DNA of 32,000 bases. Origin: Candidatus Poseidoniaceae archaeon. Its GTDB lineage: Archaea; Thermoplasmatota; Poseidoniia; Poseidoniales; Poseidoniaceae. How positions within the stretch are numbered: the stretch's first letter is position 1; each line of letters opens with the position of its first letter. The DNA lies in NCBI GenBank assembly GCA_943789275.1, contig CALSTM010000002.1, positions 60,001-92,000 on the forward strand. The letters run 5' to 3'. Under the pieces are notes generated by a model. The model saw only the letters and a list, made by a program, of their open reading frames with translations, was not told where the DNA came from and did not search any database. A program made the translations under genes and the position numbers. Below are positions 3,626 to 29,623 of the stretch, piece by piece.

Positions 3626-4621
3626 TCACTCGTTAAGACGAGCAATGAGATCTGCTTTCTTACCAGAAACTGGCTTTCCTGCAGCCTTGAGAAGCTCCTT
3701 GAGTTCTGCAACCTTCATCGATTCGTAGTCTGCAGTTGGTGCAGCCTCTTCAGCAGGTGCTTCTTCAGCAGGCGCTTCTTCAGCAGGCGCTTCTTCGGCA
3801 GGTGCTTCTTCGGCAGGTGCTTCTTCGGCAGGTGCCTTTTCAGATGCAGGTTCCATTGCTTCAGCAGCATCGATAATGGATGGAGTGGAATCTTCTTCCT
3901 CTTCATCTTCCATAGCAGATGCAAGTGCTGCTGCTTTCTTTGCTTTGATTTCCGCATCGCTGCGTGCTTCTTCAGCATGAATTTCATCAAGGGTTTTACC
4001 GTTATCAGCAACAACACCAGCTTGGAGCAATTGGCTCTTACGGATGGCGACCGACTTAACAGGGTAAATTGGTTTTACAGCCTTACGGATTTCTTCTTCG
4101 AGTGTTCCGTCAAGAATCTGGGTTTGAATCTTTGAGTAGGTTGCTTTTGAGGCAAAAGCAATGATCATGTCTCTGGCCTTCGCACGCATAGCTTGCTTAA
4201 TCGAGGTCTGAACACGCTTTTGGGTAATGATAAGCGGCTTAAGGCGAATCAGGTAACCGTCGGTCGAAACCACATCAACGACGTCATCGACTTTACCACG
4301 GTAGCGACGGATTTGTCGGCGGATGTGGTCGGTTTGGTGGTGGTGACCGATAAAAGTGGTTAGAGCATCTTGTCCAACGCACTCATGAACACGGAATCGA
4401 AGGATAACGTGCATCTTGGTAAAGTCGCCATTGAATTCTTGTTGTGTCATTTCATACACACGGCCGATAATGTGTTCATCGGACTCCCCGAGAGTCTCTC
4501 CTATTTTCTTAAAATCCCATGGTGATCGTGGGGCACGAATGGTGTACCAAATCTTGTTCTTCCACTTGTCACGTTGCTTACGTGCTGCTGCACGTGCCTT
4601 TACACTAATCTTTTTTGCCAT
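3626..4621 (-). CDS. rps3ae: 30S ribosomal protein eS1 (S3Ae) with C-terminal acidic repeat linker and SAP-like domain
   Basis: The N-terminal ~207 aa (KDKWKNKIWYTIRAP...GRVYE...FKLRF-type core) is clearly S3Ae. The C-terminal ~124 aa add (APAEE)x6 and MKVAELKELLKAAGKPVSGKKADLIARLNE. Confidence 0.92.
   Translation of the reverse strand: MAKKISVKARAAARKQRDKWKNKIWYTIRAPRSPWDFKKIGETLGESDEHIIGRVYEMTQQEFNGDFTKMHVILRFRVHECVGQDALTTFIGHHHQTDHIRRQIRRYRGKVDDVVDVVSTDGYLIRLKPLIITQKRVQTSIKQAMRAKARDMIIAFASKATYSKIQTQILDGTLEEEIRKAVKPIYPVKSVAIRKSQLLQAGVVADNGKTLDEIHAEEARSDAEIKAKKAAALASAMEDEEEEDSTPSIIDAAEAMEPASEKAPAEEAPAEEAPAEEAPAEEAPAEEAPAEEAAPTADYESMKVAELKELLKAAGKPVSGKKADLIARLNE
3741..3842. repeat. 15-bp tandem repeat, ~6.8 copies (GCAGGYGCTTCTTCR), coding (APAEE)n on the minus strand
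   Basis: Units read directly at 3753, 3768, 3783, 3798, 3813 and 3828, with a degenerate partial copy at 3741-3752. They differ only at synonymous or third positions. Confidence 0.95.
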
Positions 4622-4792: not shown

Positions 4793-5242
4793 GTGAGCCT
4801 ACACCACATCACCTGGCGCGCAACAGTCGGCGCTGTTGAAGATGAGACCGTTGTCGCAGAAGCCATTGCTTGGTTGGTTGGGGATGCAGAACTGGTCGAA
4901 ATCGAGAGAACAACTTCGTATCACGGCTCCGATATTCATATGGTCACTGGAATTTGTAAAAAAAAGCGGCAATCTCTCTCTTCACTCGCCCGGATTGGAG
5001 CGGAAAATTTGCACACGCTGTCTCAAGAAATAGAGCAACGCTTCGATGAAAACAACACGCTCCATTTCCGTTTAGATTTCCATTCGTTCATCAACGGTGA
5101 GGCTGTACTGGCAATGCCTGGAAACGAGTCGACGATAAAATGCCACACGAAAGTGGAAGTCTATCCGGGACAAGAATCGAAACAAGAATGCTTGAACGTC
5201 ATTGCCCAAGCACTTGAACTAAGCACAAAGTCGTCGGAATAA
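4793..5242 (+). CDS. small alpha/beta protein, possibly UPF0201/COG1931-type predicted RNA-binding protein
   Basis: 149 aa with a GTG start. The N-terminal pattern V.A.V...EDE..V.EAI..LVG and the later FRLD...NGEAVLA resemble the archaeal UPF0201 family. This comes from memory only. Confidence 0.45.
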   Translation: MSLHHITWRATVGAVEDETVVAEAIAWLVGDAELVEIERTTSYHGSDIHMVTGICKKKRQSLSSLARIGAENLHTLSQEIEQRFDENNTLHFRLDFHSFINGEAVLAMPGNESTIKCHTKVEVYPGQESKQECLNVIAQALELSTKSSE

Positions 5243-11456: not shown

Positions 11457-12464
11457 TCAGCGACGTCGTGATGCACGCATGTCGATTTTACGCATCGACT
11501 TCTTCTTACCAGACTTCGATTTACGATTGCTCGAATTGCCAGTATCCCCTTGACCAATTCCGCCAAAGGTAATTCCACCCGAATTCAAGAGTTTGGAGAC
11601 AAGTTCGTCAGCAACTTCTTCCGATTCTGCTCCGGTTTTCATCTCTGCTTTGACCGAAGCATTGTGATCGGTCATCCATGACTTACGCTCATCACGAGCC
11701 ATGTTCAACTTGTCCCGGACCTTGTTGACATCGACCATGAGTTCAGTGATTTTGTTGTGCATCTCGTCAGACTTTTGACGCAATTCCAAAAATTCAGTAT
11801 GGAATCGGTCGCCTTCGGCCTTGAGGAAATCTCGGTGCGAAAAGGCTTCATCCACTTCTTTTGATATGGCATCTGCCCTTCCGACTGCTTCGAGCATGTC
11901 TTGATGGGCTGCGTCAGCTTCTGAACGAAGCAATTTGATGGCTGAATCCATGTCGCTAAGGTCAACGTTAATCATCTCAAATTGTGTGACCTCCGGTGCC
12001 AATTCCTTAATTCGGAGTTTCATCTCCTTGATTTTCTTAATCATTTCCTTTTCCTTCTTTTGACCTACTGAGGAGGTCTCAAATGTCTTTTCGAGTGATT
12101 GTACTTCGTGTCGTAACTTGGCATACTCTGCAGTAGCCGATTTCTTTTCGCCCTTTTCATCACGGCGGCCTTTCACTTGATTGATCACTTCGCGAAGTTG
12201 TTGCTGAAGAGCGTTACGCTTTTCCTTGAACATCTTAATTTCAGCACGGATGGCTTTGATTTCGGTGAGTACCAAGTCGACCTTTTCGCGGTGTTCCTTG
12301 TATTGACCCTGGATAGCGTTACGCTTATCGGCTACAGTACGAGCCTGGTCGCTGAAGGAATTGCGAGTATTTCGCATTTTTCGAACACGTGCTTCCATGC
12401 CCTGTAATTCTTCTCGCAATTCAGCATCAGGACTTGGAGTCGCATCGTCTGGTCTTCCGCGCAT
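11457..12464 (-). CDS. coiled-coil protein, paralog P1 of an archaeal ~300-aa coiled-coil family (COG1340-like), basic C-terminal tail
   Basis: Heptad-rich K/E/R sequence. The central motif LEKTFETSSVGQKKEKEMIKKIKEM (aa 124-148) is shared in position with P2 and P3. C-terminus carries LVSKLLNSGGITFGG and RKSKSGKKKSMRK. Confidence 0.75.
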   Translation of the reverse strand: MRGRPDDATPSPDAELREELQGMEARVRKMRNTRNSFSDQARTVADKRNAIQGQYKEHREKVDLVLTEIKAIRAEIKMFKEKRNALQQQLREVINQVKGRRDEKGEKKSATAEYAKLRHEVQSLEKTFETSSVGQKKEKEMIKKIKEMKLRIKELAPEVTQFEMINVDLSDMDSAIKLLRSEADAAHQDMLEAVGRADAISKEVDEAFSHRDFLKAEGDRFHTEFLELRQKSDEMHNKITELMVDVNKVRDKLNMARDERKSWMTDHNASVKAEMKTGAESEEVADELVSKLLNSGGITFGGIGQGDTGNSSNRKSKSGKKKSMRKIDMRASRRR

Positions 12465-14765: not shown

Positions 14766-17255
14766 TTAGGTCTGTTCAGCAGAAAAAACTTCCTCACATG
14801 CCGGACAACGAACTGAACCGGTGTAGTCACCAGGAATTCGGAGTGATTGTGTGCATTCCGGGCAGTGAATCTCAACCTTGCCGTCCGTCTCAACAGCCGG
14901 TTCTTCTTCAACCGGTTCTCGAGAGGTATCAATTCGAGGCGTCACTTCAAAGCGATTTGAACAATCTGGACAACGCACTTGGCCACCGTAGTCTGCCGGA
15001 ACACGAAGCTGGCGGTCGCACTCCGGGCAGCCAATCTGGATTTTCTCGACGTTCGTCGTTTTGGTTTGCTTTTGAGAACCCTTTGATTCCTTGCCCTTCT
15101 TTGGCTTTTTGAGTGCTGAATCGGTACTTCGGTTTTGATAGATTCGAATGACTGCACCAAGAGCCACAGCGAGCATAGCCCCTCCAATCAGTCCGACCCA
15201 AGGAAATTCAAACGATGCTTCCTCAACCACGACGACCCCTGATTGGAACGAGTTCGTTCCAACGAAGCTGTCTTCGGCAACAACCCAAGTCACTTTGAGC
15301 GGAGCGGAATCCAAGTTGGGCCATTCAAAAGAGAACTGATAGTTCGAATCGGAATTCGCTGCTAGTGCATCGGTAGGCATCTCTCCAAGGAAAAGGCCAC
15401 CCTGTGTTGAAACGACAAGATAGCCTTCAGCGCCAGCAATATCTCCAGTGTTTCTCACTTGAACGGTAACCGTGCCGGTCTGGCCAGGTAACGGGCGGTT
15501 GGGCGTTGAAAGTGGATTGAAATCAACCGAATACGATGGACGGTCGTCTGGAACGCTCAAACTAAAACTTGAGAAACCAAATCCAGTGGTCCAGTTCAGC
15601 GGAGTTGCTCGAATGGAAACTCGGTCGGAGTCAACAAAGCCTACGGTGTAAACACCACCGGTCGAACCTGCAGTGAGTGTGGCTTCGTAATCCATTGGAT
15701 AGACATCCAAACCCGACTCAGTATAGCCAAGCCGGATGCGAACTGGACGATCTATACCTTCGCTCATCTCGACGGACCACTCAAAGGAGATGCCGTTGAC
15801 TGCATCCCATTTCACCGAAGTAATCTTTGGATTCAGGGTTTGCTGCGCTGCTACAGGGACCATCACTGTGCCGTTCAGTCCGGAATCTATTGAGCCATCC
15901 GTGGATGAAAGTGACCAGTTAACCGCCTGGTCTCCAACCATTGAAAGCGGCAAGGAAACACTGACTTCACCTGCTGAGTCGATACCGAGAGTGAGAAGAT
16001 TACTCGTGTATTCGACTCCGAGGGTCTCACACAACAACACCACCTGACCAACGTGTTCCCCATGGTTACGTACGAGCATTGAGAAAACTGCTGTATCCCC
16101 TTCATGCCAAGGACCGTTCAAAACAGCAGGTATGCTGGAGCCTGCGGATTCAAATGCGGCCGCTTCAATATCAAAAGCGAGCGAGACGCTCGACACCGAC
16201 TGCTCGGAAATCCGCATGCCATTGACCGAGCATGACAACAAATCAGGACGGGCAGTCGACTGCAGAGGGAGGGTTGTTGCCGATTGCAGCGATAACGAAA
16301 ACGGTGCATCATAGAGCGTATCCTGCCCGAAGGTGCATACCATCTGACCGTTAAAATCGAGAGTCCCGGTATTGGAAACGGAGAGATTCCATTCAACGGC
16401 ATCACCAGCGGTAATTTCGCCCGTGTTGGAAGAGAAAGAGAGGGTTAACAGCGGCAAAGGAGGCGGTGATACTTGCAATGTAAGTTCACGAGATTCATCG
16501 CTTGAATCACCGTCACCCGATGAATTCAAGGCCAGTAAAAGTGTTGCAGAGCCTTCCTGAAGTTGGAGCGTACTGTTGAAGAAAACAATCAAGCTTGATT
16601 GTGCATCGACGGTGAATGGGGACGTTGTTTGATTATCGAACGTCGACTGTACGAGCAGGGAGTGGGAAAGTGTTCCGGTCCAAGAAAAGTCACCGTCGTT
16701 AACGACCGCGACCTCGGTCTGTAGGTAATCCCCATCGTGAAGAGAAACGTTTCCGGTAAGGTCGCCTTCCGAGGTCAAACCAGAAAGAAGAATTTGTCCT
16801 GCTGGTGCTAAAGAGATATCGATCGGCTTGAGGCGATGAAGCGTTCGGGACAAGGTCAGTGTTTGGGTCGAATTCGCAGTCCCCACCTCACCCAAAACCT
16901 CGACTTGGACGGAGGTGTAACCGTATGGAAGAGAAGTGAGACCAAATTGCACGGGAAGAGTTGAGTCCGCAGGAACGGTTAGATTTTGGCTCAATGCAGC
17001 GAATGGAGTCCCGTCGAGTGAAGAAAGGACGACTTGAACTTCCACTTCGGCGTCGCTTGATAACAGTTCAACCAAGTCAAACTGTAAGTCGTATGTCGAG
17101 TCCTCAGTGGTCGCAAAATCATCGAGTGAAAAACTGCTTACATCGAGCACTGCGCCGCCACCTGTTGCACTAACCAAAGGCAACAGACAGGTCAAAAAAA
17201 GAGCAGTCATGCACACGGCTAACCCCTTGGATTGACTGGCCTCACCCCTGCCCAT
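14766..17255 (-). CDS. type-I membrane protein: signal peptide, CARDB-like beta-sandwich repeats, one TM, cytoplasmic tail with two MJ0042-type zinc ribbons
   Basis: Signal peptide MTALFLTCLLPLVSA. Repeated V.V.N.G-type segments (LSVSNTGTLDF, MLVRNHGEHVG, VQVRNTGDIAG). TM segment WVGLIGGAMLAVALGAVIRIY. Zinc ribbons CPECDRQLRVPADYGGQVRCPDCSNRFEV and CPECTQSLRIPGDYTGSVRCPACEEVFSA. Confidence 0.8.
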   Translation of the reverse strand: MGRGEASQSKGLAVCMTALFLTCLLPLVSATGGGAVLDVSSFSLDDFATTEDSTYDLQFDLVELLSSDAEVEVQVVLSSLDGTPFAALSQNLTVPADSTLPVQFGLTSLPYGYTSVQVEVLGEVGTANSTQTLTLSRTLHRLKPIDISLAPAGQILLSGLTSEGDLTGNVSLHDGDYLQTEVAVVNDGDFSWTGTLSHSLLVQSTFDNQTTSPFTVDAQSSLIVFFNSTLQLQEGSATLLLALNSSGDGDSSDESRELTLQVSPPPLPLLTLSFSSNTGEITAGDAVEWNLSVSNTGTLDFNGQMVCTFGQDTLYDAPFSLSLQSATTLPLQSTARPDLLSCSVNGMRISEQSVSSVSLAFDIEAAAFESAGSSIPAVLNGPWHEGDTAVFSMLVRNHGEHVGQVVLLCETLGVEYTSNLLTLGIDSAGEVSVSLPLSMVGDQAVNWSLSSTDGSIDSGLNGTVMVPVAAQQTLNPKITSVKWDAVNGISFEWSVEMSEGIDRPVRIRLGYTESGLDVYPMDYEATLTAGSTGGVYTVGFVDSDRVSIRATPLNWTTGFGFSSFSLSVPDDRPSYSVDFNPLSTPNRPLPGQTGTVTVQVRNTGDIAGAEGYLVVSTQGGLFLGEMPTDALAANSDSNYQFSFEWPNLDSAPLKVTWVVAEDSFVGTNSFQSGVVVVEEASFEFPWVGLIGGAMLAVALGAVIRIYQNRSTDSALKKPKKGKESKGSQKQTKTTNVEKIQIGCPECDRQLRVPADYGGQVRCPDCSNRFEVTPRIDTSREPVEEEPAVETDGKVEIHCPECTQSLRIPGDYTGSVRCPACEEVFSAEQT

Positions 17256-17322: not shown

Positions 17323-17346
17323 AGGTTGGAGACTGGCGCACTTTGT

Positions 17347-18213
17347 ATGGGTCCTGACGAGTTGCTGGAAATGACTCCCGCCTTGTTGGCGAAGTCGATT
17401 TTGCACCGACGCGAACGGCTTGCTGAAACCATTCCTGAGCAACTTGATGCTCGTCAAGACGAACTTCGAGCTGCTGAACCATTGGCTCGAAGTGCCAAAG
17501 AACAACGTGATGCTGTGAACGCTAAAGTTGCGAACCTGAAAAAGGAAAGAAATACAGCCCGAAAAAAGGCTCAAGAACTCTTCCGCCAAGCAGGGAAAAT
17601 TCGTGAAAGTATTGCCAACGCTGGTGGCGTGAAGGAAGCGAACCCAGAGTGGGCTCAATCGAAACTTGAAGACAAACTCAAGAAGATTGAACACGAATTG
17701 GAAACCAATGCCGGCAACCACAAGACCGAACAGAAATACCTCAAAGAAATGAAAGCATTGCTTCAGCAGCACGAAGATTGGGTGTCAAAAAGAAAAGACA
17801 ACCAAGACGAACATGCTGAAATGAAGAAAATGTATGACGATGCTCGAAACCAACTTTCCTTGTCAGAAAAGGCCCACAATGCTTTGCTTGACCACGCGAC
17901 TCAAAACGAATATTTCCACAACACCTACCTTGAGCAGGAAGCACACCGCCGTCGAGCAGACGCCCGCACCAAACGACTGGCTTTGGCACTCGACAGCAGT
18001 CAGAAGGGCATTGAACACTGGCAGAATCACATCGACAACGGATTTGATTCACTGCTTGAAAACGCACAACGTGTCAAAAACGGTGAACCGTCAAGTCACG
18101 CTCGCCGTCGAGCACGGAACAACAAGAAGGAATCGAAACCTGCCTCCTCTGGTCGATCAAAGAAAGAGCAACCCAAGCAACCCAAGCAAGCCAAGGGAGG
18201 CGAAGAAGAATGA
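17347..18213 (+). CDS. coiled-coil protein, paralog P2 (COG1340-like), K/R/Q-rich C-terminal tail
   Basis: Central motif IEHELETNAGNHKTEQKYLKEMKAL aligns by position with P1 and P3. Basic tail SSHARRRARNNKKESKP...KKEQPKQPKQAK. The track start 17326 is TTG, so I prefer ATG 17347 (17371 is also possible). The stop overlaps the next ATG (ATGA at 18210-18213). Confidence 0.72.
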   Translation: MGPDELLEMTPALLAKSILHRRERLAETIPEQLDARQDELRAAEPLARSAKEQRDAVNAKVANLKKERNTARKKAQELFRQAGKIRESIANAGGVKEANPEWAQSKLEDKLKKIEHELETNAGNHKTEQKYLKEMKALLQQHEDWVSKRKDNQDEHAEMKKMYDDARNQLSLSEKAHNALLDHATQNEYFHNTYLEQEAHRRRADARTKRLALALDSSQKGIEHWQNHIDNGFDSLLENAQRVKNGEPSSHARRRARNNKKESKPASSGRSKKEQPKQPKQAKGGEEE

Positions 18214-20378
18214 GCGATGAATGCCCCATCACGGGTTTTGATAACGCTCAGCAACATCGCTGGCCACTCGTTCACCAGTACCTTTGCGATAAACTCGAAT
18301 TACCAAACGGCGATGGACTGGAGACTTCCGCAATGGAAAAACTCTCCAAAGACATCGAAAAAACACTTTACGAACAACGCCCAAACGCTTCGATGTTGAA
18401 AAAGCGAAAGGGCTTGTATGAGCATTTGAAACGAACCGTGGAACGGAGATTCAAGGGCAGTTCTCTGCGACAATTTGGTTCTTCAGCATCCGGACTTTCA
18501 CTCTCCAGCGGTGACATGGACCTCTGTTTATTGTTGAACGACCAAAAGCCAAAGAAAATCCTCCGTTCCCTTTCAAACACGCTGAAGAATCAGGACATGG
18601 AAGACATTCAAGTGATTGCTTCGGCTAAAGTCCCGATCATCAAGTTCACCGATGAACGCACCAAAATCCCAGTTGACATTTCCATCAACAACACACTGGC
18701 CTTGCACAACACGACGCTCCTCAAGCGGTATGGAGACATGGATGAACGCATCCAGAACAGCATTCTTGCCGTCAAGTATTGGGCCTCACAACGGGATGTT
18801 GGTGATGCAGCAAAGGGTACCTTCTCGTCCTATGCTTGGAGCATCATCATGCTGCAAGCACTTCAGACAACATCACCGCCAGTTGCTCCAAACATTCAAT
18901 CCGGTAAAGAACGCACGCACCTCAAGGTAGACGGAATCGAATACGACCTCACGATGGCTGAGAATCCTGAGGATTTACTCAACGAAAAGAACACCCAATC
19001 GGTTGGAGAATTGTTCACGCACTTCATCAAACAATTGGTGCTTGAGCGGCCTTGGGAAGAGCACGTGCTTTCGATTCGAAGCGGACAACCTATCGGTCGG
19101 AACGAGAAGAAATGGAAATACGGCAAACCGCACGCCTCGACTGCTGTTGTCATGGGTGGCAAAACGCGCCTTGGCCTGCATTCGTTCCCTGTTGAAGACC
19201 CCTTCAACCACGAGCATGACTTGAGTCGGGTTCTTCGCCCCGAAGGCGCCCTTGACATTCAAGAAGAACTGTTCCGATTCTGGCTGGAACTCAACCAAGG
19301 AAAGAACTGGAATGAATTGTGTCAGCTCAAGAATCCAGAACGATTCCCTGTAGTTGAAGAAAAAGACCTGTTTGAAGACTTACGAACGCTTGCAAAAGCC
19401 GACTTCGAATTGAAAGTCAAAGCGAACAGTGAACAACTTACCGACCTTGAAGGTCGTATTGAAATGCTTCACCAAGAGCGACAAAACAACATCAAAATTT
19501 CTCAGGCACTGCGTGGCCTGTTTGAAGAAACCAGCGACTTGCGCAACGAACACCGTAAAATCGTCCGCAGCCTTCGCCCTCGCAGTGACAAAATGAATGC
19601 ACTGCAGGAAAAGCGAGACCAACTCAATCAAAAGATTGGGATTCCACTTTACAGAATCCGAGAATTAATTCTCGAAGTGTACAACAATCTCACTGACGAT
19701 GTCGACTTTTTCCAAGTCCCATCGCTTCAGCGCGAAGATGAACAATTTGCTTGGTTCTTCGAATTGCAAGCCATGCATGCCGTGGCATTGGAAGCAGATA
19801 CAGCGCACAAGGAATTCATCTCATTGGTCCGAGAGCAGAAGAAGGCGGTTAAAGATTTGAAAATCACTGAAAACAAGCAATCCGAAGTTCGAGCAGAAAT
19901 GGTGAACTCCGAACCAATTCTTGCGAACATCACCACTGAATTCAGCGAAGCCAGACAATTCGACCAGAACGCGCATTCCCTCAACAAAGTGATTCAAGAA
20001 CGACGTCGAGAGATGCGACAATTGCGCCGAGAGAAAGGTCGATTGGATGCATGGGCTCGTATTTCTGCCAAAGGAACATCAACACGAAAACCCGGCAAGA
20101 GAGATGGTAAGCGTAAATCCAAGTCGGGCCAAGCGGATTGGAAGCCTCGGAACAACGGACCTCGCCCTGAAGAAGTTCAGCACCGAGCTGCTACCGGCGG
20201 TGCACTCTCCCTCTCGGACCTGGATGTCCTCCTCAACAGCGGTGGAATTGCCTCGGTGAACACATCCAAGCCAACACCGAAATCCACCCGAAGAGCAGAA
20301 CGCAAAAAGAAGCAAAACCGCAACTTAACCGTTCGACGCGGTGAGCGCTCTCAATCTACAAAAGGGCGTAAAGAGTGA
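18210..20378 (+). CDS. Cid1/Trf4-like (non-canonical poly(A)/poly(U) polymerase-type) nucleotidyltransferase fused to a COG1340-like coiled coil and basic tail
   Basis: FGSSASGLSLSSGDMDLCLLL, AKVPIIKFTDERTKIPVDISINN, VKYWASQRDVGDAAKGTFSSYAWSIIMLQALQ..PPVAPNIQ and FPVEDPFNHEHDLSRVL form the NTase plus PAP-associated signature. The coiled coil spans aa ~385-640, followed by LLNSGGI and a K/R tail. GGGAGG Shine-Dalgarno at 18195-18200. Confidence 0.8.
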   Translation: MSDECPITGFDNAQQHRWPLVHQYLCDKLELPNGDGLETSAMEKLSKDIEKTLYEQRPNASMLKKRKGLYEHLKRTVERRFKGSSLRQFGSSASGLSLSSGDMDLCLLLNDQKPKKILRSLSNTLKNQDMEDIQVIASAKVPIIKFTDERTKIPVDISINNTLALHNTTLLKRYGDMDERIQNSILAVKYWASQRDVGDAAKGTFSSYAWSIIMLQALQTTSPPVAPNIQSGKERTHLKVDGIEYDLTMAENPEDLLNEKNTQSVGELFTHFIKQLVLERPWEEHVLSIRSGQPIGRNEKKWKYGKPHASTAVVMGGKTRLGLHSFPVEDPFNHEHDLSRVLRPEGALDIQEELFRFWLELNQGKNWNELCQLKNPERFPVVEEKDLFEDLRTLAKADFELKVKANSEQLTDLEGRIEMLHQERQNNIKISQALRGLFEETSDLRNEHRKIVRSLRPRSDKMNALQEKRDQLNQKIGIPLYRIRELILEVYNNLTDDVDFFQVPSLQREDEQFAWFFELQAMHAVALEADTAHKEFISLVREQKKAVKDLKITENKQSEVRAEMVNSEPILANITTEFSEARQFDQNAHSLNKVIQERRREMRQLRREKGRLDAWARISAKGTSTRKPGKRDGKRKSKSGQADWKPRNNGPRPEEVQHRAATGGALSLSDLDVLLNSGGIASVNTSKPTPKSTRRAERKKKQNRNLTVRRGERSQSTKGRKE

Positions 20379-20387
20379 GGGTTACCG

Positions 20388-20864
20388 ATGGGCAACATCC
20401 AGTGGGTGTACGGTTTCGAACCAAAGACGCTCTCGGATGACTGGAAAGAAAAAGTGAGGTCGCTCTTCCTCCAAGAAACAGGAGAACGCTACACTCTTGA
20501 ATCGATTTCGAATTTGCCCATTCCGCAATGGAGTGGGAATATGCTGCTGCTCGATAACGACAGGTATCCTCATCCGGAGTCCCTACTCGGCCTGATGTGG
20601 GCCTTACCGCACGAAGAGCACGGCGTTCGAATAGCAGCCTTTGTCATCGACTCAAACCATCAGTCCGCCGGATGGGGTGGAAAAGCTTGGGACCACTTGG
20701 TCGAAATCGCACTCTCCGCAGGAAAGACAACCATTCAACTTGAAGTCAAGGCCGAAAACATTCGGGCACAAAATTTCTACACTGCAAGGAATTTGAAAGT
20801 CGTTCAACATCTATCAAACTACTATGCATCAGGACTTGGTTACATGATGAAAGGACCCATTTGA
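20388..20864 (+). CDS. GNAT-family N-acetyltransferase (RimI/Ard1-like size)
   Basis: 158 aa. The acetyl-CoA motif A region is VIDSNHQSAGWGGKAWDHLVEIA, followed by NIRAQNFYTARNLKVV. SD-like GAGG lies 7 nt upstream, and the gap to the NTase gene is 9 nt. Confidence 0.85.
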   Translation: MGNIQWVYGFEPKTLSDDWKEKVRSLFLQETGERYTLESISNLPIPQWSGNMLLLDNDRYPHPESLLGLMWALPHEEHGVRIAAFVIDSNHQSAGWGGKAWDHLVEIALSAGKTTIQLEVKAENIRAQNFYTARNLKVVQHLSNYYASGLGYMMKGPI

Positions 20865-20930: not shown

Positions 20931-21251
20931 GTGGAACCCCTCTTGCTTCGTGACATAGCAGCCCAATCCGGCGTTACCGGTGCTGCTTTACTCGACGGAG
21001 AAGGTTTTGTGCTGCACAGCGAACCTCAACACGATGACAGCGTTCAGGATTTAGGTAAAGCGATCGCCCTTCTTGACCCGAGTTTTTCCAGTGGTCGAGT
21101 CACGTTGAACGGTGAGAGCGGTACGATCATTGTGCAAGAATTATCAGGAAACCGAGTTTTAGTCGTACGGTGCTTACCCTCCTCAAACCTCGGCCAATTG
21201 CGTCATGTACTTGACCAGGCCGTGGCTCGATTCAACACCCTCATACCTTAG
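20931..21251 (+). CDS. Roadblock/LC7 (MglB-like) domain protein
   Basis: 106 aa. The pattern L..IA..SGVTGAALLDGEGFVLHS....D....LGKAIA.L, then G.I.V.EL.GN.VLVV, is typical of Roadblock/LC7. GTG start. Confidence 0.75.
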   Translation: MEPLLLRDIAAQSGVTGAALLDGEGFVLHSEPQHDDSVQDLGKAIALLDPSFSSGRVTLNGESGTIIVQELSGNRVLVVRCLPSSNLGQLRHVLDQAVARFNTLIP

Positions 21252-21378: not shown

Positions 21379-22266
21379 ATGGATGAACTAAAACCTCAAC
21401 TCGAAGAACGACGAAAGATGGTCGATGAAAAGGCTACAAAATACCGTACTCTTCGAGATGAGTGTAACGATAATTCCAAGAAATTCACCGCCACACGAAA
21501 CGAAATGAACGGCGAAGTACGCGAACTTATTGTCCAAGTTCGTGAACAACGTGAAATTCGAGAACAAATGAACGAAATCGTTCGTGAAAAGAAGAGCATT
21601 CGGCTTGAAGCAAACAAGAAAGTTCGTGAAGCAAAAGACGCTCTCAATGAAGCAAAGGGGCCAGAAGCCGCTCCACAACGAGATGAAGGACGCCGTGGTC
21701 GTCGAGACCGCCCAGACACCATTCACTCCCTGCGAAGAGAATTGATTCGATTGGAAAACGAATTCGAAATGGGACGTCACACCGGTAAGAACGAAACCAA
21801 AGTCATGAAGCGCATGAAGGAAATCAGCGCTAAAATCCAAAAGATGAAGATTTCGGAAGACTCCAACACCGACCTCAAAGAATCCCGCGAAGCACTTCGC
21901 ATCGCTATGGAAACCCAAGAAACGGCCCACGCCGCAGTTGAACAAGCAGCCGAAGCCGCTCAAGAAGCGCACGATTTGATGCTCCAATGGAACAAGGAAG
22001 TTGACAACCAACGAGAAAAGGCAGAATCTGCTCACCGAAAGTTGCGTACTTCCAAGAAGGAAGCAGACAAGAATCACCGCGCTTACATCGTTTCGCTGCG
22101 ATGCTTGCACTCCATTCAAGACATACTCCGTGCAATGCGTGGCGCAAGTGCAGGTGCTGGACAACGGCCAAATGCACGCGTCGAAGTTCAAGATTTGATG
22201 GGCAAGTTGATGTCTGGAGAGACACTCTCGACCGAAGAATTGATGCAACTTCAGCGCTACGACTGA
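21379..22266 (+). CDS. coiled-coil protein, paralog P3 (COG1340-like)
   Basis: Central motif LENEFEMGRHTGKNETKVMKRMKEIS at the same position as in P1 and P2. C-terminus DLMGKLMSGETLSTEELMQLQ. AGGTGA Shine-Dalgarno at 21366-21371. Confidence 0.75.
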   Translation: MDELKPQLEERRKMVDEKATKYRTLRDECNDNSKKFTATRNEMNGEVRELIVQVREQREIREQMNEIVREKKSIRLEANKKVREAKDALNEAKGPEAAPQRDEGRRGRRDRPDTIHSLRRELIRLENEFEMGRHTGKNETKVMKRMKEISAKIQKMKISEDSNTDLKESREALRIAMETQETAHAAVEQAAEAAQEAHDLMLQWNKEVDNQREKAESAHRKLRTSKKEADKNHRAYIVSLRCLHSIQDILRAMRGASAGAGQRPNARVEVQDLMGKLMSGETLSTEELMQLQRYD

Positions 22267-26082: not shown

Positions 26083-29000
26083 TTAGCCTTGGAAAGCAGG
26101 GTAGTACTGTTGGGTGTACTGCAGAGCACTCTCTTGAGGATAACCTTGAGCGATCAAGCCGTTGTAGTATTCTCGAGCCGGGTCAGGTTGAACTGGAGCA
26201 GGTTGCGCTGCTGGCTGGGCTGCTTGAACCGGTTGTGCTGCCATGTTTGGCATGGCAACAGCTGCGGCTGGTTGAGCGGCCATATTCGGCATACCACCGG
26301 CAACCGGTGCTGCTGTGTTGCTGTAATTCGGCATCAAAACCGTTGGTTGTGCTGCCATGTTTGGCATGGCCGGCATTGCGCCACCCATTGGAGCAAAGTT
26401 ACCGTCGTTCCAGTTCTTGTCGACAACCTCACCATCCGGCTTGCGAATGAAGAAGAAGGCAAGACCTGCAATGACAGCGAGCGCAACAACAGCACCAATT
26501 CCGAGGACCAACGTCGAGGATGAAGAAGCCCCGTCGGTTGAAGAAGCGTCTTTTATCCAGCGCAGAGGGTCATCGGGGTAAGCGTCAGCTCCGTCCTTGA
26601 CCTTCCAGTCTCCTGAAGGGTTCGAATAGCCGTCACCGTCCGCATCAAAACAACCAGTACGGTCTGCTGTTGAGTTACCCGCACCCGAGACACAGGCATC
26701 AGCACCATCGGCGAGCGTCCATGAACCATCAGGGTCGGAGTAGCCGTCGCCGTCGGTGTCTGCGCAGCCAATTCGGTCAATGCTTGAGGAATCTCGGACG
26801 GTCGGGCAAGCATCCGGAGTGATGCCAAGCGGATTGTCGCCAAAGCCGTCACCATCAGCATCCGACCATTGCGAGGCTTCGTCGGGGAAAGCATCGCCAC
26901 CTAATTCGTAGCCCCATGTGATATCAGCGTTGGAGTAGCCATCGCCGTCGGCGTCCATGCATCCAAAGCGGTCAACAGTTGAGTTACCAGGCAGTGCTGG
27001 GCATGCATCGGGTTGGTTTCCACTTTCGTTGTCACCAAATGAATCCATATCGGTATCTTCCCATTGTGTCGGATCGTTATCGAAGGCATCCATGAAGTCC
27101 GCCCATCCATCAGAATCGGTGTCAAGACATCCAAGGATTCCTTGTTGCCAAGATGTACCAAATTGGTTTGGACATGCATCCTGTTCTGTGGCGCCATCGA
27201 CGTAGATTCCGTTCCATGAGGATTTACGGTCGTCCCAAGTTGAGTTCCCCCAGTTATCGCCAAATCCGTCTTCATCAGAATCTGCCCATTGGGTTGCATC
27301 GTTTGGGAAAGCGTCTGCACCGTCTTCGATGTACCAGCTGGAATCAGCATCCGAATAGCCATCTTCATCTGAATCAAAACAGCCCAGTCGGTCTAAAGTT
27401 GAAGTTCCAGGTACTGTGGAACAATCGTCAGGGGAAAGGCCTTGCAGGTTGTCTCCATAGTTGTCTGCATCTCCATCGGCCCATTGCGTTGGCTCGTTCG
27501 GGAAAGCATCATCGGTGTTTGACCAGCCGTCTCCATCGGTGTCAGGGCATGCATTCTTGCCGCCAAGTGTTGAGTTACCGGCTTCAGTCGGACAGTCATC
27601 GTAGGTATCGGACCAGCCATCGCTGTCAGAGTCAAGGCATCCAGTGGTACCGAGTAACGATGTTCCAGGAGTTGTAGGACAGTCATCTTCAACGTCGTCA
27701 AAACCATCAGCATCGTCATCGACGTCTTCGTCAGAATCACGGCAACCGTCACCATCGAGGTCGTTTGAGGAATCTGAAACCCATGTTGGCCGTGGAGGGT
27801 CATAGGAAGTGTACGGGCATATATCGTTGACATCCAGAACTTGGTCGTTGTCGTCATCTAAATCTTCAACATCGTCTTTGCAGCCGTCGTTATCCCAATC
27901 GCTCGAAGCAGAGGGGTTGGATGTGTCTTGCATGCTTGTCCAATTGAATTCGCCACCACGAGGACAAAGGTCAGGGAAGTTATCGGTAAGCCCATCGTTG
28001 TCATCGTCCGAATCGCATGCGTCGCCTTTGTCGTCCATATCGGTGTTTGCTTGAGTCGGGTTTGAAACCGTAGGACAATTGTCGTCGACATCGACAATAC
28101 TGTCGCTGTCGGTGTCTTTCAATGCGGCAGGGTCAAACGACCAAATGAACGCATCTCGTCCACCGGTTGAAGTAATCGATGTGCCATCGTGGGTCATCGA
28201 ACCTGAGTAGGCTCCACCGACGCCAATTGAATCGGTGTCGTTGACCGCCAAATCCCACACATAATCGTATTGAGAGCCACCGACTGATTCAGCCCATTCC
28301 GCTGAACCAGAGTCGGAAAGTCCGACCACAAATCCATCGTGATTGGAAGGTGTAAGCGTGTACGAACTGGCAGTGTGGGAAGCAATCATGTATCCACCAT
28401 AAACAACCTTACCGGTCGTGGTAATCGCAAGGCCTTGAGGCTCATCTGCTTGACTTGAACCAGAAACAAACGCCCAGCTGTTGGAAGAAGAAGTCGCTTC
28501 ACGCACAATAAAAATATCGTTTCCACCGTAGGAAGCAGTTGCAGACCAACCGGTGCCGGTCAACGATCCACCGAATGTACCGGCATAGTATGTGTCTCCA
28601 TTGAAGTCAATATCGATGTTCAAGATGATGGTCTGTTCATTTGGAGTACCGTAGCCAGTGAGTCCGAGTAGAGCACCGCTGGGGTCAACTTCTACGATGA
28701 CTGCATCAACAGTACCTTTCGCAAGGTAGCTGGTCGTTCCCCATTGAGAAAAACCATCCGATATGGTGGCGAGTTTCACGCCGCCATTTGTTGTTGGTGC
28801 AAGGTCGAAAACACGGTTAACACCGATTCCACCACCGTTGAGAACCCAATTCAAACCGCCGCTGCCAAAATCATAACTCGCGACATAGATTTCGGTGTTG
28901 GTGACGTTCAAAGGAATCCCACCGAAGTCAGTTTCACCTTCGAACTCACCGGTCAGTAGAACATCACCGCTTGCAGAAAAGGCGACGCCAGATGTCGAAC

Positions 29001-29623
29001 TGTATTCACCGGTGCCGTTCACCAGCGTTTCAAGGCCTCGAACCCACTGCCAATCTCCGTTTGGGGTCAATGTAGCAACGAATCCTTCAAAATGATAACC
29101 AGAATTGGTGTTGGACAAGATAATATCTGGACCCGAACTCCTTGGGAAAGAGATTTCACCGTAATAATAGCCAGAGATAGCGATATCTCCTGAGATGTCG
29201 ACAGCAATATCAGTTAGAAAAGAAAGTCCACCCGCTCCATAACTGTGGTCGGCACCAATGACGGAGCGCCACACACCAGTGTCATCGACCATCGCCAAGA
29301 AAAATTCACCGTAGTGCAGACCCATACGGGGATGTCGGTTGGAGCGTAGTCGTTCCAAACGTGAGTGATGCGTTGTATTCCGAACCGATGATCCATCCAG
29401 CGCCCCCAAGTGCAGCAATATGTCGCGCATCGATGCTTTGACTGGTGGAACCACCTGCTGAAAGGTATGAGTTGGATGCACCTCGACCTGAAGTGAATTG
29501 AGGTCCTTGAGATTCAGTTTCAAGAGGGTGTTCAACCAAGTCAGGTGATTCCATCACCATGATTGAAGCAAGCATCAAGAACGTGAGCAAAAGTGCTGAG
29601 AAGGTTCTGTTCAATGGGCGCAT
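26083..29623 (-). CDS. giant surface protein: signal peptide + beta-propeller repeats + ~8 thrombospondin-type-3/Cys-knot Ca-binding modules + TM + 120-aa cytoplasmic P/Q/A/M-rich tail. N-terminal 105 codons are in a different frame (apparent +1 frameshift near 29309-29345)
   Basis: The main ORF 26083..29535 is 1150 aa. A DNCPTVSNPTQANTDMDDKGDACDSDDDNDG segment and repeated CP...G.S..DR.GC.D.DGDGYSD...DAFP.D..QW.D.D.DG.GDN modules are present. TM segment LVLGIGAVVALAVIAGLAFFFI. ORF 29306..29623 supplies a GGTGA Shine-Dalgarno, an ATG, the signal peptide FSALLLTFLMLASIMVM and the first propeller blade. Confidence 0.8.
26231..26370. repeat. 26-bp exact direct repeat pair (GGTTGTGCTGCCATGTTTGGCATGGC) plus a degenerate middle copy, coding MPNMAAQP
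   Basis: Exact copies at 26231-26256 and 26345-26370. A diverged copy lies around 26273-26294. All are within the cytoplasmic tail of the giant protein. Confidence 0.9.

What the first reader, a model, noticed from the sequence alone, without database searches (positions are those of the whole stretch)
18210..20378. Eukaryote-type Cid1/Trf4-like terminal nucleotidyltransferase, fused to a coiled coil and K/R tail, in an archaeal genome
The first ~345 aa carry the full signature I associate with non-canonical poly(A)/poly(U) polymerases. The elements are: FGSSASGLSLSSGDMDLCLLL (hG[GS]...DxD, nt 18474-18521); AKVPIIKF...IPVDISINN (third catalytic Asp, nt 18675-18677); and a PAP-associated-type region (VKYWASQRDVGDAAKGTFSSYAWSIIMLQALQ, PPVAPNIQ, FPVEDPFNHEHDLSRVL). 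The remaining ~375 aa are a coiled coil related to the neighbouring stand-alone proteins, then LSLSDLDVLLNSGGI and a K/R-rich tail. Two points of established knowledge apply. Cid1/Trf4/GLD-2 enzymes lack their own RNA-binding domain and borrow one from partners. Archaeal 3' tailing has been attributed to the exosome, and the well-studied archaeal class-I NTase is the CCA-adding enzyme. A dedicated TENT-like enzyme with a built-in basic tail would therefore be an undescribed archaeal RNA-modification activity.
Basis: partly seen in the sequence, partly recalled or inferred. Interest (0 to 1): 0.85.

Follow-up and report, generated by a model that had tools for sequence, protein, structure and literature searches.

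The report
Cid1-type RNA tailing enzyme in archaea
A gene conserved across the abundant ocean archaea of Marine Group II encodes an intact enzyme of the kind eukaryotes use to add U-tails to RNA, fused to an archaeal coiled-coil protein, which suggests these archaea may mark RNAs by uridylation, something apparently not yet described in archaea.

Summary
The ORF (18210-20378, +, 722 aa) is real. Its first ~365 aa are a Cid1/TUT4-7/URT1-type terminal nucleotidyltransferase (TENT): PDB phmmer E=6.6e-47 to TUT4; predicted fold matches Cid1, URT1, TUT7 and CutA at target TM-score 0.84-0.90. No CCA-adding, MNT or CD-NTase matches appeared. The catalytic triad and nucleotide-binding residues are invariant in 75 orthologues. 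The UTP-selectivity His336 is present in 72/75. dN/dS is 0.01-0.12 in all parts. The host is archaeal: 139 GTDB species genomes encode a relative, the 80 best being essentially all Poseidoniales, with fixed synteny. The catalytic modules form one clade (92/100 bootstraps) among otherwise apparently eukaryotic proteins, so one ancient eukaryote-to-archaeon transfer is likely.

One correction: the C-terminal half is not detectably related to the neighbouring coiled-coil proteins. It is a separate module that also exists free-standing in two lineages lacking the NTase. A third lineage keeps a fused NTase with a dead active site. The upstream COG1340-like gene overlaps the TENT start (ATGA) in 62/75 loci, suggesting a partner.

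An MGII genome also encodes a transcribed exosome, so the TENT adds to it rather than replacing it. I found no prior description. Activity, nucleotide choice and substrates remain untested.

The parts
17347..18213 (+). Upstream 288-aa coiled-coil gene (cc288), a COG1340/DUF7121-like paralogue and the likely partner of the TENT. The conserved start is the ATG at 17347, not the TTG at 17326.
   Evidence: hhalign to the DUF7121 orthologue profile gives probability 90.5%, E=1.4e-6. Precomputed Pfam calls the syntenic genes DUF7121. Its stop overlaps the TENT start by 4 nt (ATGA) in 62/75 loci and by 1 nt in 6 more. It is present in 76/78 loci.
18210..20378 (+). Whole TENT-coiled-coil fusion ORF, 722 aa.
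18210..18326 (+). N-terminal extension (aa 1-39) with near-invariant C5, T8, G9 and an RWP motif. It lies outside most of the Cid1-family alignments and its role is unknown.
   Evidence: Invariant columns. C5, T8 and G9 are each 73/75. Most PDB alignments start at query residue 40-65 and the earliest (CutA) starts at residue 25.
18327..19304 (+). Catalytic module (aa ~40-365): a Pol-beta-type nucleotidyltransferase palm inserted in a PAP/OAS1-type substrate-binding domain.
   Evidence: Pfam PF22600 1.5e-33. PDB phmmer: TUT4 6.6e-47, URT1 8e-38, Cid1 1e-30. Foldseek target TM-score 0.84-0.90 to CutA, Cid1, URT1 and TUT7. dN/dS 0.02-0.08.
18474..18521 (+). F89-G90-S91 ... D102-x-D104: the hG[GS] motif and the first two catalytic aspartates.
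   Evidence: G90, S91, D102 and D104 are invariant in 75/75 orthologues. F89 is invariant in the 27-sequence alignment.
18675..18677 (+). D156, the third catalytic aspartate (VDISINN).
   Evidence: 75/75. It aligns with the catalytic region of TUT4/7.
19194..19229 (+). Nucleotide-recognition motif E329-D330-P-F-x-x-x-H336-x-L338-x-R340. His336 occupies the UTP-selectivity position.
   Evidence: It aligns with URT1's IEDPFETSHDLGRV. E329, D330 and L338 are 75/75, H336 is 72/75 and R340 is 73/75. The role of H336, D330 and R340 in Cid1 is from PMC3479196.
19365..20069 (+). C-module (aa 386-620): a long antiparallel helical coiled coil starting at the invariant DLFEDLR motif. It carries the conserved motifs RDxIN, FAWFFELQAMH (nt 19746-19778) and RREKGRLDAW (nt 20025-20054).
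   Evidence: Invariant columns. AF2 helices with pLDDT about 85-95. Only generic coiled-coil fold matches. No PDB or Pfam relative. It exists as a free-standing protein in L080/81 and L084-86. dN/dS 0.01-0.06.
20070..20375 (+). Disordered basic tail (aa 621-722, 27.5% K+R). It embeds a short conserved amphipathic helix, LSLSDLDVLLNSGG (nt 20205-20246), and a terminal RGxR motif.
   Evidence: Composition. pLDDT below 50 for 623-649 and 701-722, with a helix at 668-676. Motif conservation. dN/dS 0.03-0.12.
20388..20864 (+). GNAT (RimI-like) acetyltransferase, 9 nt downstream. It is a conserved neighbour, but a functional link is not shown.
   Evidence: Pfam Acetyltransf_1 3.3e-9. NCBIfam rimI 2.9e-9, below its cut-off. 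Present in 76/78 loci.
20931..21251 (+). Small Roadblock/LC7-like ORF, a conserved neighbour in many loci.
   Evidence: Pfam Robl_LC7 1.2e-3, weak. tblastn detects it in 54/78 loci.
21379..22266 (+). DUF7121/COG1340 coiled-coil protein (295 aa), a paralogue of cc288.
   Evidence: Pfam DUF7121 5.2e-16. Present in 71/78 loci. hhalign.
11457..12464 (-). Probable third DUF7121/COG1340 paralogue (335 aa), assigned by synteny only.
   Evidence: The genes at the same position in L084/85/86 and L087 carry a precomputed PF23435 hit. The window protein itself gave no significant Pfam hit.

Best explanation
The gene encodes an active, template-independent RNA 3'-terminal nucleotidyltransferase of the eukaryotic Cid1/TUT4-7/URT1 branch, most likely a uridylyltransferase.

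Shown: it has the complete Cid1-family fold and an invariant two-metal active site (D102, D104, D156), with the hG[GS] motif and nucleotide-binding residues N167, K189, S206-S207-Y208, D330 and R340. The histidine that selects UTP in Cid1 is conserved. All parts of the protein are under strong purifying selection. The gene is native to Poseidoniales (Marine Group II archaea).

Inferred: an ancestor of the order acquired the catalytic module once, from a eukaryote. The module was fused in frame to the N-terminus of a lineage-specific coiled-coil protein, the C-module. That C-module is translationally coupled to, and probably assembles with, the upstream COG1340-like coiled-coil protein cc288. 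The coiled-coil scaffold and the disordered K/R tail stand in for the RNA-binding partners that eukaryotic TENTs recruit. They would deliver the enzyme to its RNA substrates, where it adds short U-rich tails. Because these archaea also have an exosome, the tails most plausibly act as marks or single-stranded landing pads for 3'-5' decay or surveillance. The C-module/cc288 pair has a function of its own, since it persists where the NTase has decayed or is absent.
For: Family and fold: (TUT4 6.6e-47; target TM-score 0.84-0.90 to Cid1, URT1, TUT7 and CutA).
Active site: invariant in 75 distinct orthologues, with H336 in 72/75. The meaning of H336, D330, R340 and Y212 comes from the Cid1 structures, where all confirmed poly(U) polymerases have His at this position (PMC3479196).
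Selection: dN/dS 0.01-0.12 in the catalytic module, coiled coil and tail.
Native and ancient: 139 GTDB species genomes encode a relative. The best 80 are Poseidoniales of both families apart from two mis-binned contigs, and include the 2.06 Mb chromosome CM001443.1. Synteny is fixed.
Single origin: the archaeal catalytic modules form one bipartition with 92/100 NJ bootstraps among 136 representatives. The next-best proteins are of 1100-2000 aa with two NTase-like stretches, which is the TUT4/7 architecture, and the named ones are from a haptophyte and an amoebozoan.
Modularity: the free-standing C-module remains coupled to the cc gene in L080/81 and L084-86, with no NTase remnant. A fused NTase with a dead active site but an intact C-module occurs in L087.
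Coupling to cc288: ATGA overlap in 62/75 loci.
Exosome co-occurrence: Rrp4, Rrp41, Rrp42 and Csl4 are transcribed in an MGII MAG.
Against: There is no biochemical or transcript-level evidence. RNA as the substrate, U as the added nucleotide, tail length and targets all rest on homology.

His at the selectivity position is correlative. Cid1 still uses ATP in vitro, and CutA, an equally good structural match, is described as adding C/U-rich extensions (abstract of PMC5689010).

The cc288 interaction is inferred only from gene overlap. The whole ~10 kb region is syntenic across the order, so neighbourhood alone says little about function.

The C-module has no recognisable RNA-binding fold.

The direction of transfer and the gain-versus-loss polarity within the order are not resolved.

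That two or three lineages do without the NTase shows the activity is dispensable in at least some members.
Confidence: 0.62

Rival explanations
1. It is a poly(A) or mixed-tail polymerase that works like Trf4 in the eukaryotic TRAMP complex. It would add short A-rich tails that hand RNAs to the archaeal exosome, supplementing the exosome's own tailing.
For: MGII archaea have an exosome, and archaeal exosome substrates are A-rich-tailed (PMC7144898). Cid1 itself incorporates A in vitro. GLD-2 poly(A) polymerases are also significant matches (4e-30).
Against: The selectivity position holds His in 72/75 orthologues, and none of the substitutions is Asn (R in 2, L in 1). Confirmed poly(A) polymerases of this family generally have Asn there. 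Trf4 is a distant match (3.5e-9) compared with TUT4/7 (about 1e-46) and URT1 (about 1e-37).
Confidence: 0.15
2. The nucleotidyltransferase is a passenger or regulatory pseudo-enzyme. The real function lies in the coiled-coil C-module/cc288 complex, and the NTase domain only binds a nucleotide or RNA without tailing it.
For: The C-module/cc pair persists without the NTase in L080/81 and L084-86. One lineage keeps a fused NTase with a destroyed active site (L087).
Against: In the window protein and 74 other orthologues every catalytic and nucleotide-contacting residue is invariant. dN/dS of the catalytic module is 0.02-0.08. That pattern is what an active enzyme shows. The dead version is an exception found in a single contig.
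Confidence: 0.07
3. It is a different kind of Pol-beta-fold nucleotidyltransferase: a CCA-adding or tRNA-repair enzyme, a minimal MNT/KNTase-type enzyme, or an OAS/CD-NTase-like second-messenger synthase.
For: These enzymes share the Pol-beta-type core, and the OAS family also shares the PAP/OAS1-type substrate-binding domain (my own knowledge). The Polbeta and PAP_NTPase Pfam models give weak sub-threshold hits (E about 0.025).
Against: No such enzyme appears among 39 PDB sequence matches or the 50 Foldseek matches listed. No NCBIfam prokaryotic NTase model matches at E <= 0.01. The nucleotide-recognition motif is that of Cid1 and URT1.
Confidence: 0.04
4. It is an artefact: eukaryotic DNA mis-assembled or mis-binned into an archaeal contig, or a recent mobile or viral insertion.
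For: The catalytic module's nearest relatives outside the family are eukaryotic.
Against: The same intron-less gene sits in the same archaeal neighbourhood in 70+ independent assemblies, including Mb-scale contigs. It diverges in step with the host, from 99% down to 37% identity. It overlaps the upstream archaeal gene. No relative was found in 2.9 million viral contigs. Composition is unremarkable.
Confidence: 0.01

Closest known systems
Human TUT4/TUT7 (ZCCHC11/ZCCHC6) C-terminal catalytic module
   Same: Best sequence matches (6.6e-47 and 5.9e-45, about 35-40% identity over ~250 aa). Same fold (target TM-score up to 0.90 to 5w0o). Same catalytic triad.
   Different: TUT4/7 are 1500-1650 aa proteins. 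They have a second NTase-like module, seen as the weaker N-terminal matched stretch. From my own knowledge that module is inactive, and they also have CCHC zinc knuckles and a Lin28-interacting module. The archaeal protein has one NTase module, no detected zinc knuckle, a unique 39-aa N-terminal extension and a coiled-coil plus basic tail.
Arabidopsis URT1 and S. pombe Cid1 (cytoplasmic terminal uridylyltransferases)
   Same: They match the full catalytic module including the C-terminal lobe (query 58-357, E=8e-38 and 1e-30). The nucleotide-recognition motifs are near-identical: IEDPFETSHDLGRV in URT1 and VEDPFNHEHDLSRV here. The His that contacts uracil O4 is shared.
   Different: From my own knowledge, Cid1 is a minimal enzyme with no appended domains and URT1 has a disordered N-terminal region. 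Neither has a coiled coil. Both are eukaryotic.
Aspergillus CutA (C/U-adding TENT)
   Same: Top Foldseek match (E=1.1e-21, target TM-score 0.85) and sequence E=5e-36.
   Different: CutA is described as synthesising C/U-rich 3' extensions (abstract of PMC5689010). Whether the archaeal enzyme shares any such preference is unknown.
Trf4/Trf5 of the TRAMP complex
   Same: Same superfamily. It offers a functional analogy as a tailing enzyme that feeds an exosome, which MGII archaea possess.
   Different: A distant match (E=3.5e-9, covering only query 58-211). From my own knowledge, Trf4 works with separate Air1/2 and Mtr4 partners; no such partners were examined here.
Archaeal exosome tailing (Rrp41/Rrp42 with DnaG and Csl4)
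   Same: It is the 3'-tailing activity described so far in archaea in the papers read here (PMC7144898), and it is present in MGII.
   Different: From my own knowledge it is an unrelated, phosphorolytic, RNase PH-fold enzyme that uses NDPs and makes heteropolymeric A-rich tails. The enzyme here is an NTP-dependent Pol-beta-type transferase.
COG1340 / DUF7121 archaeal coiled-coil proteins
   Same: The two stand-alone neighbours belong to this family or resemble it. The TENT's C-module is likewise a long helical coiled coil with a C-terminal G-x-x-L-S-x-x-[DE]-L-x-x-L-like element.
   Different: No detectable homology between the C-module and DUF7121 (hhalign probability 0.8-2.3%; no Pfam hit). 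The function of COG1340 is itself unknown (PMC1322226).

Membership tests
Cid1-family non-canonical terminal nucleotidyltransferases (TENT / ncPAP / TUTase) | Pol-beta NTase signature hG[GS] followed by DxD, plus a third catalytic Asp. | tested here: met
   F89-G90-S91, D102, D104 and D156. G90, S91 and the three Asp are invariant in 75/75 orthologues.
Cid1-family non-canonical terminal nucleotidyltransferases (TENT / ncPAP / TUTase) | Two-lobe fold: an NTase palm inserted in a PAP/OAS1-type (PAP-associated) substrate-binding domain. | tested here: met
   PF22600 scores 116 bits against a 27-bit cut-off. PF03828 scores 21.5 bits, just under its 22.6-bit cut-off, in this protein, but is on record for most orthologues. 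The AF2 model matches Cid1, URT1, TUT7 and CutA with target TM-score 0.84-0.90 and E about 1e-21.
Cid1-family non-canonical terminal nucleotidyltransferases (TENT / ncPAP / TUTase) | Nucleotide-recognition motif, with His at the Cid1-H336 position in uridylyltransferases. | tested here: met
   E329-D330-P-F-x3-H336-x-L-x-R340 aligns with URT1. His is present in 72/75 orthologues. The meaning of the motif is from PMC3479196.
Cid1-family non-canonical terminal nucleotidyltransferases (TENT / ncPAP / TUTase) | No RRM-type RNA-binding domain of the canonical poly(A) polymerase. | tested here: met
   No RRM or PAP RNA-binding Pfam hit. Canonical PAP gamma scores only E=0.68.
Cid1-family non-canonical terminal nucleotidyltransferases (TENT / ncPAP / TUTase) | Template-independent addition of NMPs to the RNA 3'-OH. 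| not testable with these tools
   Requires an enzyme assay.
TUT4/TUT7 subfamily | Duplicated NTase modules (N-terminal inactive, C-terminal active) with CCHC zinc knuckles. | tested here: not met
   The protein has a single NTase module and no zinc-knuckle Pfam hit. It resembles the TUT4/7 catalytic module but does not share the architecture.
Class I CCA-adding enzymes / MNT-KNTase minimal NTases / CD-NTases | Best profile or fold match to these families. | tested here: not met
   They are absent from the 39 PDB sequence matches and the 50 listed Foldseek matches. No NCBIfam model matches at E <= 0.01.
DUF7121 / COG1340 (asked of the C-terminal half) | Profile similarity to DUF7121 or to the neighbouring paralogues. 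| tested here: not met
   No Pfam hit at E<10. BLASTP E=0.21 and 0.45. hhalign probability 2.3% and 0.8%.

The most novel reading that the evidence does not exclude
Marine Group II archaea run a eukaryote-like RNA uridylation pathway. A TUTase captured from a eukaryote and hard-wired to an archaeal COG1340-type coiled-coil complex U-tails specific RNAs to direct them to the exosome or to Sm-like proteins. The natural active, dead and absent variants within the order offer a built-in comparative experiment. This would be the first dedicated NTP-dependent RNA-tailing enzyme, other than CCA-adding enzymes, described in archaea. It would also give the first functional handle on the conserved but uncharacterised COG1340 family.
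Probability: 0.35. Interest if true: 0.85.

Novelty: new variant of a known kind. Interest (0 to 1): 0.75.

Why it matters
In the TENT papers retrieved here, Cid1-type enzymes are described only from eukaryotes, and archaeal 3' tailing is attributed to the exosome. This gene is an order-wide, strongly constrained, apparently active TUT4/7-like enzyme in one of the most abundant archaeal groups of the surface ocean. It sits in an architecture (TENT + coiled coil + basic tail) found in none of the known TENTs it was compared with here.

If it is active, three things follow:
- Uridylation-type RNA marking is not confined to eukaryotes.
- An old eukaryote-to-archaeon transfer of an RNA-metabolism enzyme has been domesticated by fusion to a host scaffold.
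- The uncharacterised COG1340 coiled-coil family is tied to RNA metabolism.

It is directly testable. The protein can be expressed. MGII-rich metatranscriptomes exist, and lineages with an intact, a dead or no catalytic module provide natural controls.

Tried and rejected
- **C-half versus the neighbours.** BLASTP and hhalign of 66-71-sequence orthologue profiles show no relationship. I had noticed that TGGALSLSDLDVLL resembles the DUF7121 C-terminus SGETLSTEELMQLQ, but the profile comparison did not pick it up, so it remains anecdotal.
- **Apparent split genes.** P0323/L083 and P0331/L079 turned out to be full-length genes broken by frameshifts, in assemblies where other genes are broken too. 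I rejected them as evidence of natural splitting.
- **Gain versus loss of the NTase.** NJ trees of the C-module, DUF7121+DtxR, PdxS and PurP give conflicting or long-branch placements for the NTase-less lineages. Source names tie one of them to Ca. Thalassarchaeum (MGIIb). The dead-site L087 sits nearest the MGIIb-type clade. Loss is favoured but not shown.
- **Viral vector.** No relative in IMG/VR.
- **Expression evidence.** The stored part of the MGII metatranscriptome supplement holds neither the gene nor purP.
- **Donor lineage.** The sister group in the NJ tree is not robust.
- **Prior description.** All ten literature searches found none. Subscription-only papers were not searchable.

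Full report
**1. The observation**

The ORF at 18210..20378 (+) is present and encodes 722 aa. F89-G90-S91...D102-x-D104 occupies nt 18474-18521, and D156 is nt 18675-18677.

Pfam gives MTPAP-like_central (PF22600) at 1.5e-33, NTP_transf_2 at 7.8e-8, TUTase at 1.4e-4 and PAP_assoc at 2.8e-4. The PAP_assoc score of 21.5 bits falls just under its 22.6-bit cut-off, but that family is on record for most orthologues.

A phmmer search of all PDB sequences returns only eukaryotic Cid1-family enzymes plus one very weak canonical poly(A) polymerase match:

| PDB match | E-value |
|---|---|
| TUT4 | 6.6e-47 |
| TUT7 | 5.9e-45 |
| URT1 | 8e-38 |
| CutA | 5e-36 |
| Cid1 | 1e-30 |
| GLD-2 | 4e-30 |
| mitochondrial PAP, TUT1 | about 1e-15 |
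| Trf4 | 3.5e-9 |
| canonical PAP gamma | 0.68 |

An AlphaFold2 model built on a 27-sequence family alignment has mean pLDDT 81.9. Its catalytic module superposes on CutA, Cid1, URT1 and TUT7 with target TM-scores of 0.84-0.90 and E about 1e-21. No CCA-adding enzyme, MNT/KNTase or CD-NTase appears in either list.

**2. The organism**

The window is archaeal. It carries ribosomal protein S3Ae, RNA polymerase subunit A'', PurP, PdxS and thymidylate synthase/DHFR.

Full-length homologues of 686-731 aa, at 37-99% identity, occur on contigs up to 1.8 Mb. A scan of one genome per GTDB species found 139 genomes encoding a relative. The best 80 are Poseidoniales of both families, Poseidoniaceae (MGIIa) and Thalassarchaeaceae (MGIIb), apart from two contigs titled as bacterial MAGs that carry the archaeal synteny. 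They include the 2.06 Mb MG-II chromosome CM001443.1. The window is closest to Poseidoniaceae MAGs (96% identity to L001).

Gene order is conserved in about 70-76 of 78 loci: DtxR - membrane protein - cc288 - TENT - GNAT - (Roadblock-like) - DUF7121 - PurP. Contamination by eukaryotic DNA, or a recent mobile insertion, is excluded. No relative exists in IMG/VR viral contigs.

**3. The enzyme is built to work**

In 75 distinct full-length orthologues the following residues are all 75/75: G90, S91, D102, D104, D156, N167, K189, R195, S206, S207, Y208, E329, D330 and L338. R340 is 73/75.

The nucleotide-recognition motif VEDPFNHEHDLSRV aligns with URT1's IEDPFETSHDLGRV. His336 is present in 72/75 orthologues. 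The Cid1 structures show that H336 hydrogen-bonds uracil O4. All confirmed poly(U) polymerases of the family have His at this position, whereas poly(A) polymerases generally have Asn. An H336N mutation shifts Cid1 towards ATP (PMC3479196).

Pairwise dN/dS among close orthologues is 0.02-0.08 for the catalytic module, 0.01-0.06 for the coiled coil and 0.03-0.12 for the basic tail.

I therefore infer an active NTP-dependent 3'-terminal transferase with a probable preference for UTP. This is an inference from homology. No tool here tests activity.

**4. The C-terminal half**

The model shows very long helices at 396-475, 506-567 and 578-620. A disordered tail follows, with 27.5% K+R in the last 102 residues. 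It contains a short conserved helix carrying LSLSDLDVLLNSGG and a terminal RGxR motif.

This half is not a generic coiled coil. Several motifs are invariant across the family: DLFEDLR, RDxIN, F(S/A)WFFELQAMH and RRExGRL(E/D)AW.

BLASTP gives E=0.21 and 0.45. hhalign of orthologue profiles gives probabilities of 2.3% and 0.8%. The two neighbours are related to each other (probability 90.5%, E=1.4e-6). One of them is a Pfam DUF7121 protein, which JGI names "coiled-coil DUF342 family protein" and which I equate with COG1340 from my own knowledge. COG1340 was described in 2005 as a highly conserved archaeal group of unknown function.

The C-module has no Pfam, NCBIfam or PDB relative. It gives only generic antiparallel coiled-coil fold matches: SMC arms, SH3BP5 and EnvC at query TM-scores of 0.13-0.29.

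**5. Modularity and natural variants**

Searching with the C-module alone and reading genomic contexts revealed three states.

- **Active fusion.** This is the state in nearly all sampled Poseidoniales, including the MGIIa type species Ca. Poseidonia alphae (WP_338171946.1), where it is annotated only as "nucleotidyltransferase domain-containing protein".
- **Free-standing C-module.** Proteins of 325-336 aa sit in the same neighbourhood, still start/stop-coupled to the upstream cc gene. No NTase remnant is detectable in any frame. They occur in two lineages. L080/81 is found on 10 contigs, up to 679 kb. L084-86 is found on 24 or more contigs. The conserved proteins of L084-86 fall in clusters of at least 90% identity with Ca. 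Thalassarchaeum betae, the MGIIb type species.
- **Dead fusion.** In L087 the protein is still fused, but the active site is destroyed while every C-module motif is kept:

| Element | Window protein | L087 (P0177) |
|---|---|---|
| hG[GS] motif | FGSS | IDSS |
| First two catalytic Asp | GDMDLC | GEFGVS |
| Third catalytic Asp | VDISINN | VNMGIND |
| Nucleotide-binding SSY | FSSYAW | FGNDTW |
| Recognition motif | EDPF...R | ESAF...N |

L087 is nearest the MGIIb-type clade.

The C-module/cc pair is therefore the conserved core, with a function of its own, and the NTase is an added module that some lineages have lost or are losing. Simple NJ trees do not resolve whether the NTase-less lineages branch inside or outside the TENT-bearing ones. 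The existence of a decayed intermediate and the Thalassarchaeum affiliation favour secondary loss.

Two apparent split genes (L079, L083) are frameshifted full-length genes and were discarded.

**6. The partner**

The conserved start of the upstream gene is the ATG at 17347, which makes cc288 a 288-aa protein. Its stop codon overlaps the TENT start codon by 4 nt (ATGA) in 62/75 loci and by 1 nt in 6 more. The same overlap joins the cc gene to the free-standing C-module in L080 (GTGA). This conserved translational coupling suggests, but does not prove, a stoichiometric complex.

Here a coiled-coil scaffold and a K/R tail are built in.

**7. Origin**

An exhaustive HMMER search of 1.84 billion cluster representatives with the catalytic module gave 6854 hits. 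About a dozen clusters have the archaeal architecture. After them comes a step down to proteins of 1100-2000 aa with two NTase-like stretches, which is the TUT4/7 architecture, at 29-34% identity. The named hits beyond the family are from a haptophyte (Pavlovales) and an amoebozoan.

In an NJ tree of 136 representatives the archaeal modules form one bipartition with 92/100 bootstraps. Among the archaea sampled here the gene is confined to Poseidoniales, and the family is broadly eukaryotic. The most economical reading is therefore a single ancient eukaryote-to-archaeon transfer followed by fusion. The donor and a rooted topology remain undetermined.

**8. Cellular context and likely role**

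The annotated MGII MAG in the supplement of PMC9723583 lists transcribed Rrp4-Rrp41-Rrp42 (best hits MG2_1082-1080), Csl4 and beta-CASP nucleases. Where archaeal 3' tailing has been studied, it is attributed to the exosome (PMC7144898). The TENT therefore co-exists with an exosome.

My best mechanistic reading is that the enzyme adds short U-rich tails to selected RNAs, and that these tails act as marks or single-stranded entry sites for 3'-5' decay or surveillance. This would be analogous to TUT4/7-URT1 or TRAMP pathways in eukaryotes. The substrates, the readers and the role of cc288 are inferred, not shown.

**9. Novelty and verdict**

No curated NCBIfam model matches the protein at E <= 0.01. 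Public names are "hypothetical protein", "nucleotidyltransferase domain-containing protein" or "DNA polymerase sigma". All ten full-text searches and the main comparative paper on the order found no description. Subscription-only literature could not be searched.

The catalytic family is well known. What is new is its stable presence in an archaeal order, the fusion architecture and the natural active, dead and absent series. I rate it a new variant of a known kind. It is of high interest to RNA-tailing and archaeal RNA-metabolism specialists and is directly testable.

Noticed in passing
window 3626-4621 (-); also L085/L086 1-260: Ribosomal protein S3Ae carries a C-terminal SAP domain (S3Ae 1.5e-52 at aa 13-200; SAP 7.8e-13 at aa 298-331). 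The same fusion is recorded in the NTase-less relatives. From my own knowledge SAP is mainly a eukaryotic nucleic-acid-binding motif, so this may be another eukaryote-like feature of these archaea.
   Followed up: no
window 11457-12464 (-), 17347-18213 (+), 21379-22266 (+): Three COG1340/DUF7121-type coiled-coil paralogues lie within 11 kb, around the TENT. The first is assigned only by synteny with genes carrying DUF7121 hits in L084 and L087. The family is widely conserved in archaea and has no known function.
   Followed up: partly
L087 8001-10082 (JGI 3300003894, 60.9 kb contig): A fused orthologue (P0177, 693 aa) in which every catalytic and nucleotide-binding motif of the NTase is destroyed, while all C-module motifs are intact. 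It is a natural pseudo-enzyme intermediate.
   Followed up: partly
L080/L081 6001-7011; L084 7424-8401; L085/L086 8001-8978: A free-standing C-module (325-336 aa) with no nucleotidyltransferase, still overlapping the upstream DUF7121-like gene. One lineage clusters with Ca. Thalassarchaeum betae.
   Followed up: partly
supplement file 4 of PMC9723583 (MGII MAG 'SIMO Bin 19-2'): The MAG is annotated with a COG0617/K00974 'Poly A polymerase head domain' CCA-adding enzyme, which is the class II (bacterial/eukaryotic) type rather than the archaeal class I type. It also has a Csl4-like exosome cap protein carrying an RRM Pfam hit.
   Followed up: no
L069 (titled Rhodobiaceae bacterium MAG) and L076 (titled Salipiger bermudensis MAG): These two contigs are filed under bacterial MAGs but carry the full archaeal TENT neighbourhood. 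They are almost certainly mis-binned Poseidoniales contigs.
   Followed up: partly
window 18210-18326 (aa 1-39 of the TENT): An N-terminal extension with near-invariant Cys5, Thr8-Gly9 and an RWP motif. It has no counterpart in most of the aligned eukaryotic TENT structures. Its function is unknown.
   Followed up: no
window 14766-17255 (-) and 26083-29535 (-): Two large probable surface proteins. One is 829 aa with a CARDB domain and two C-terminal zinc ribbons after a predicted transmembrane segment. The other is 1150 aa with thrombospondin type-3 repeats. Both are syntenic across the order.
   Followed up: no
window 4793-5242 (+): A PF01877 'RNA binding' protein that JGI names 'RNA binding exosome subunit'. 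It lies about 13 kb upstream of the TENT, next to S3Ae.
   Followed up: no
P0057 (860 aa family member): It carries an internal tandem duplication of about 140 aa of the C-module, running from the DLFHDLR region to the FELQAMH region, visible in alignment A1. It could be a real duplication or an assembly artefact.
   Followed up: no
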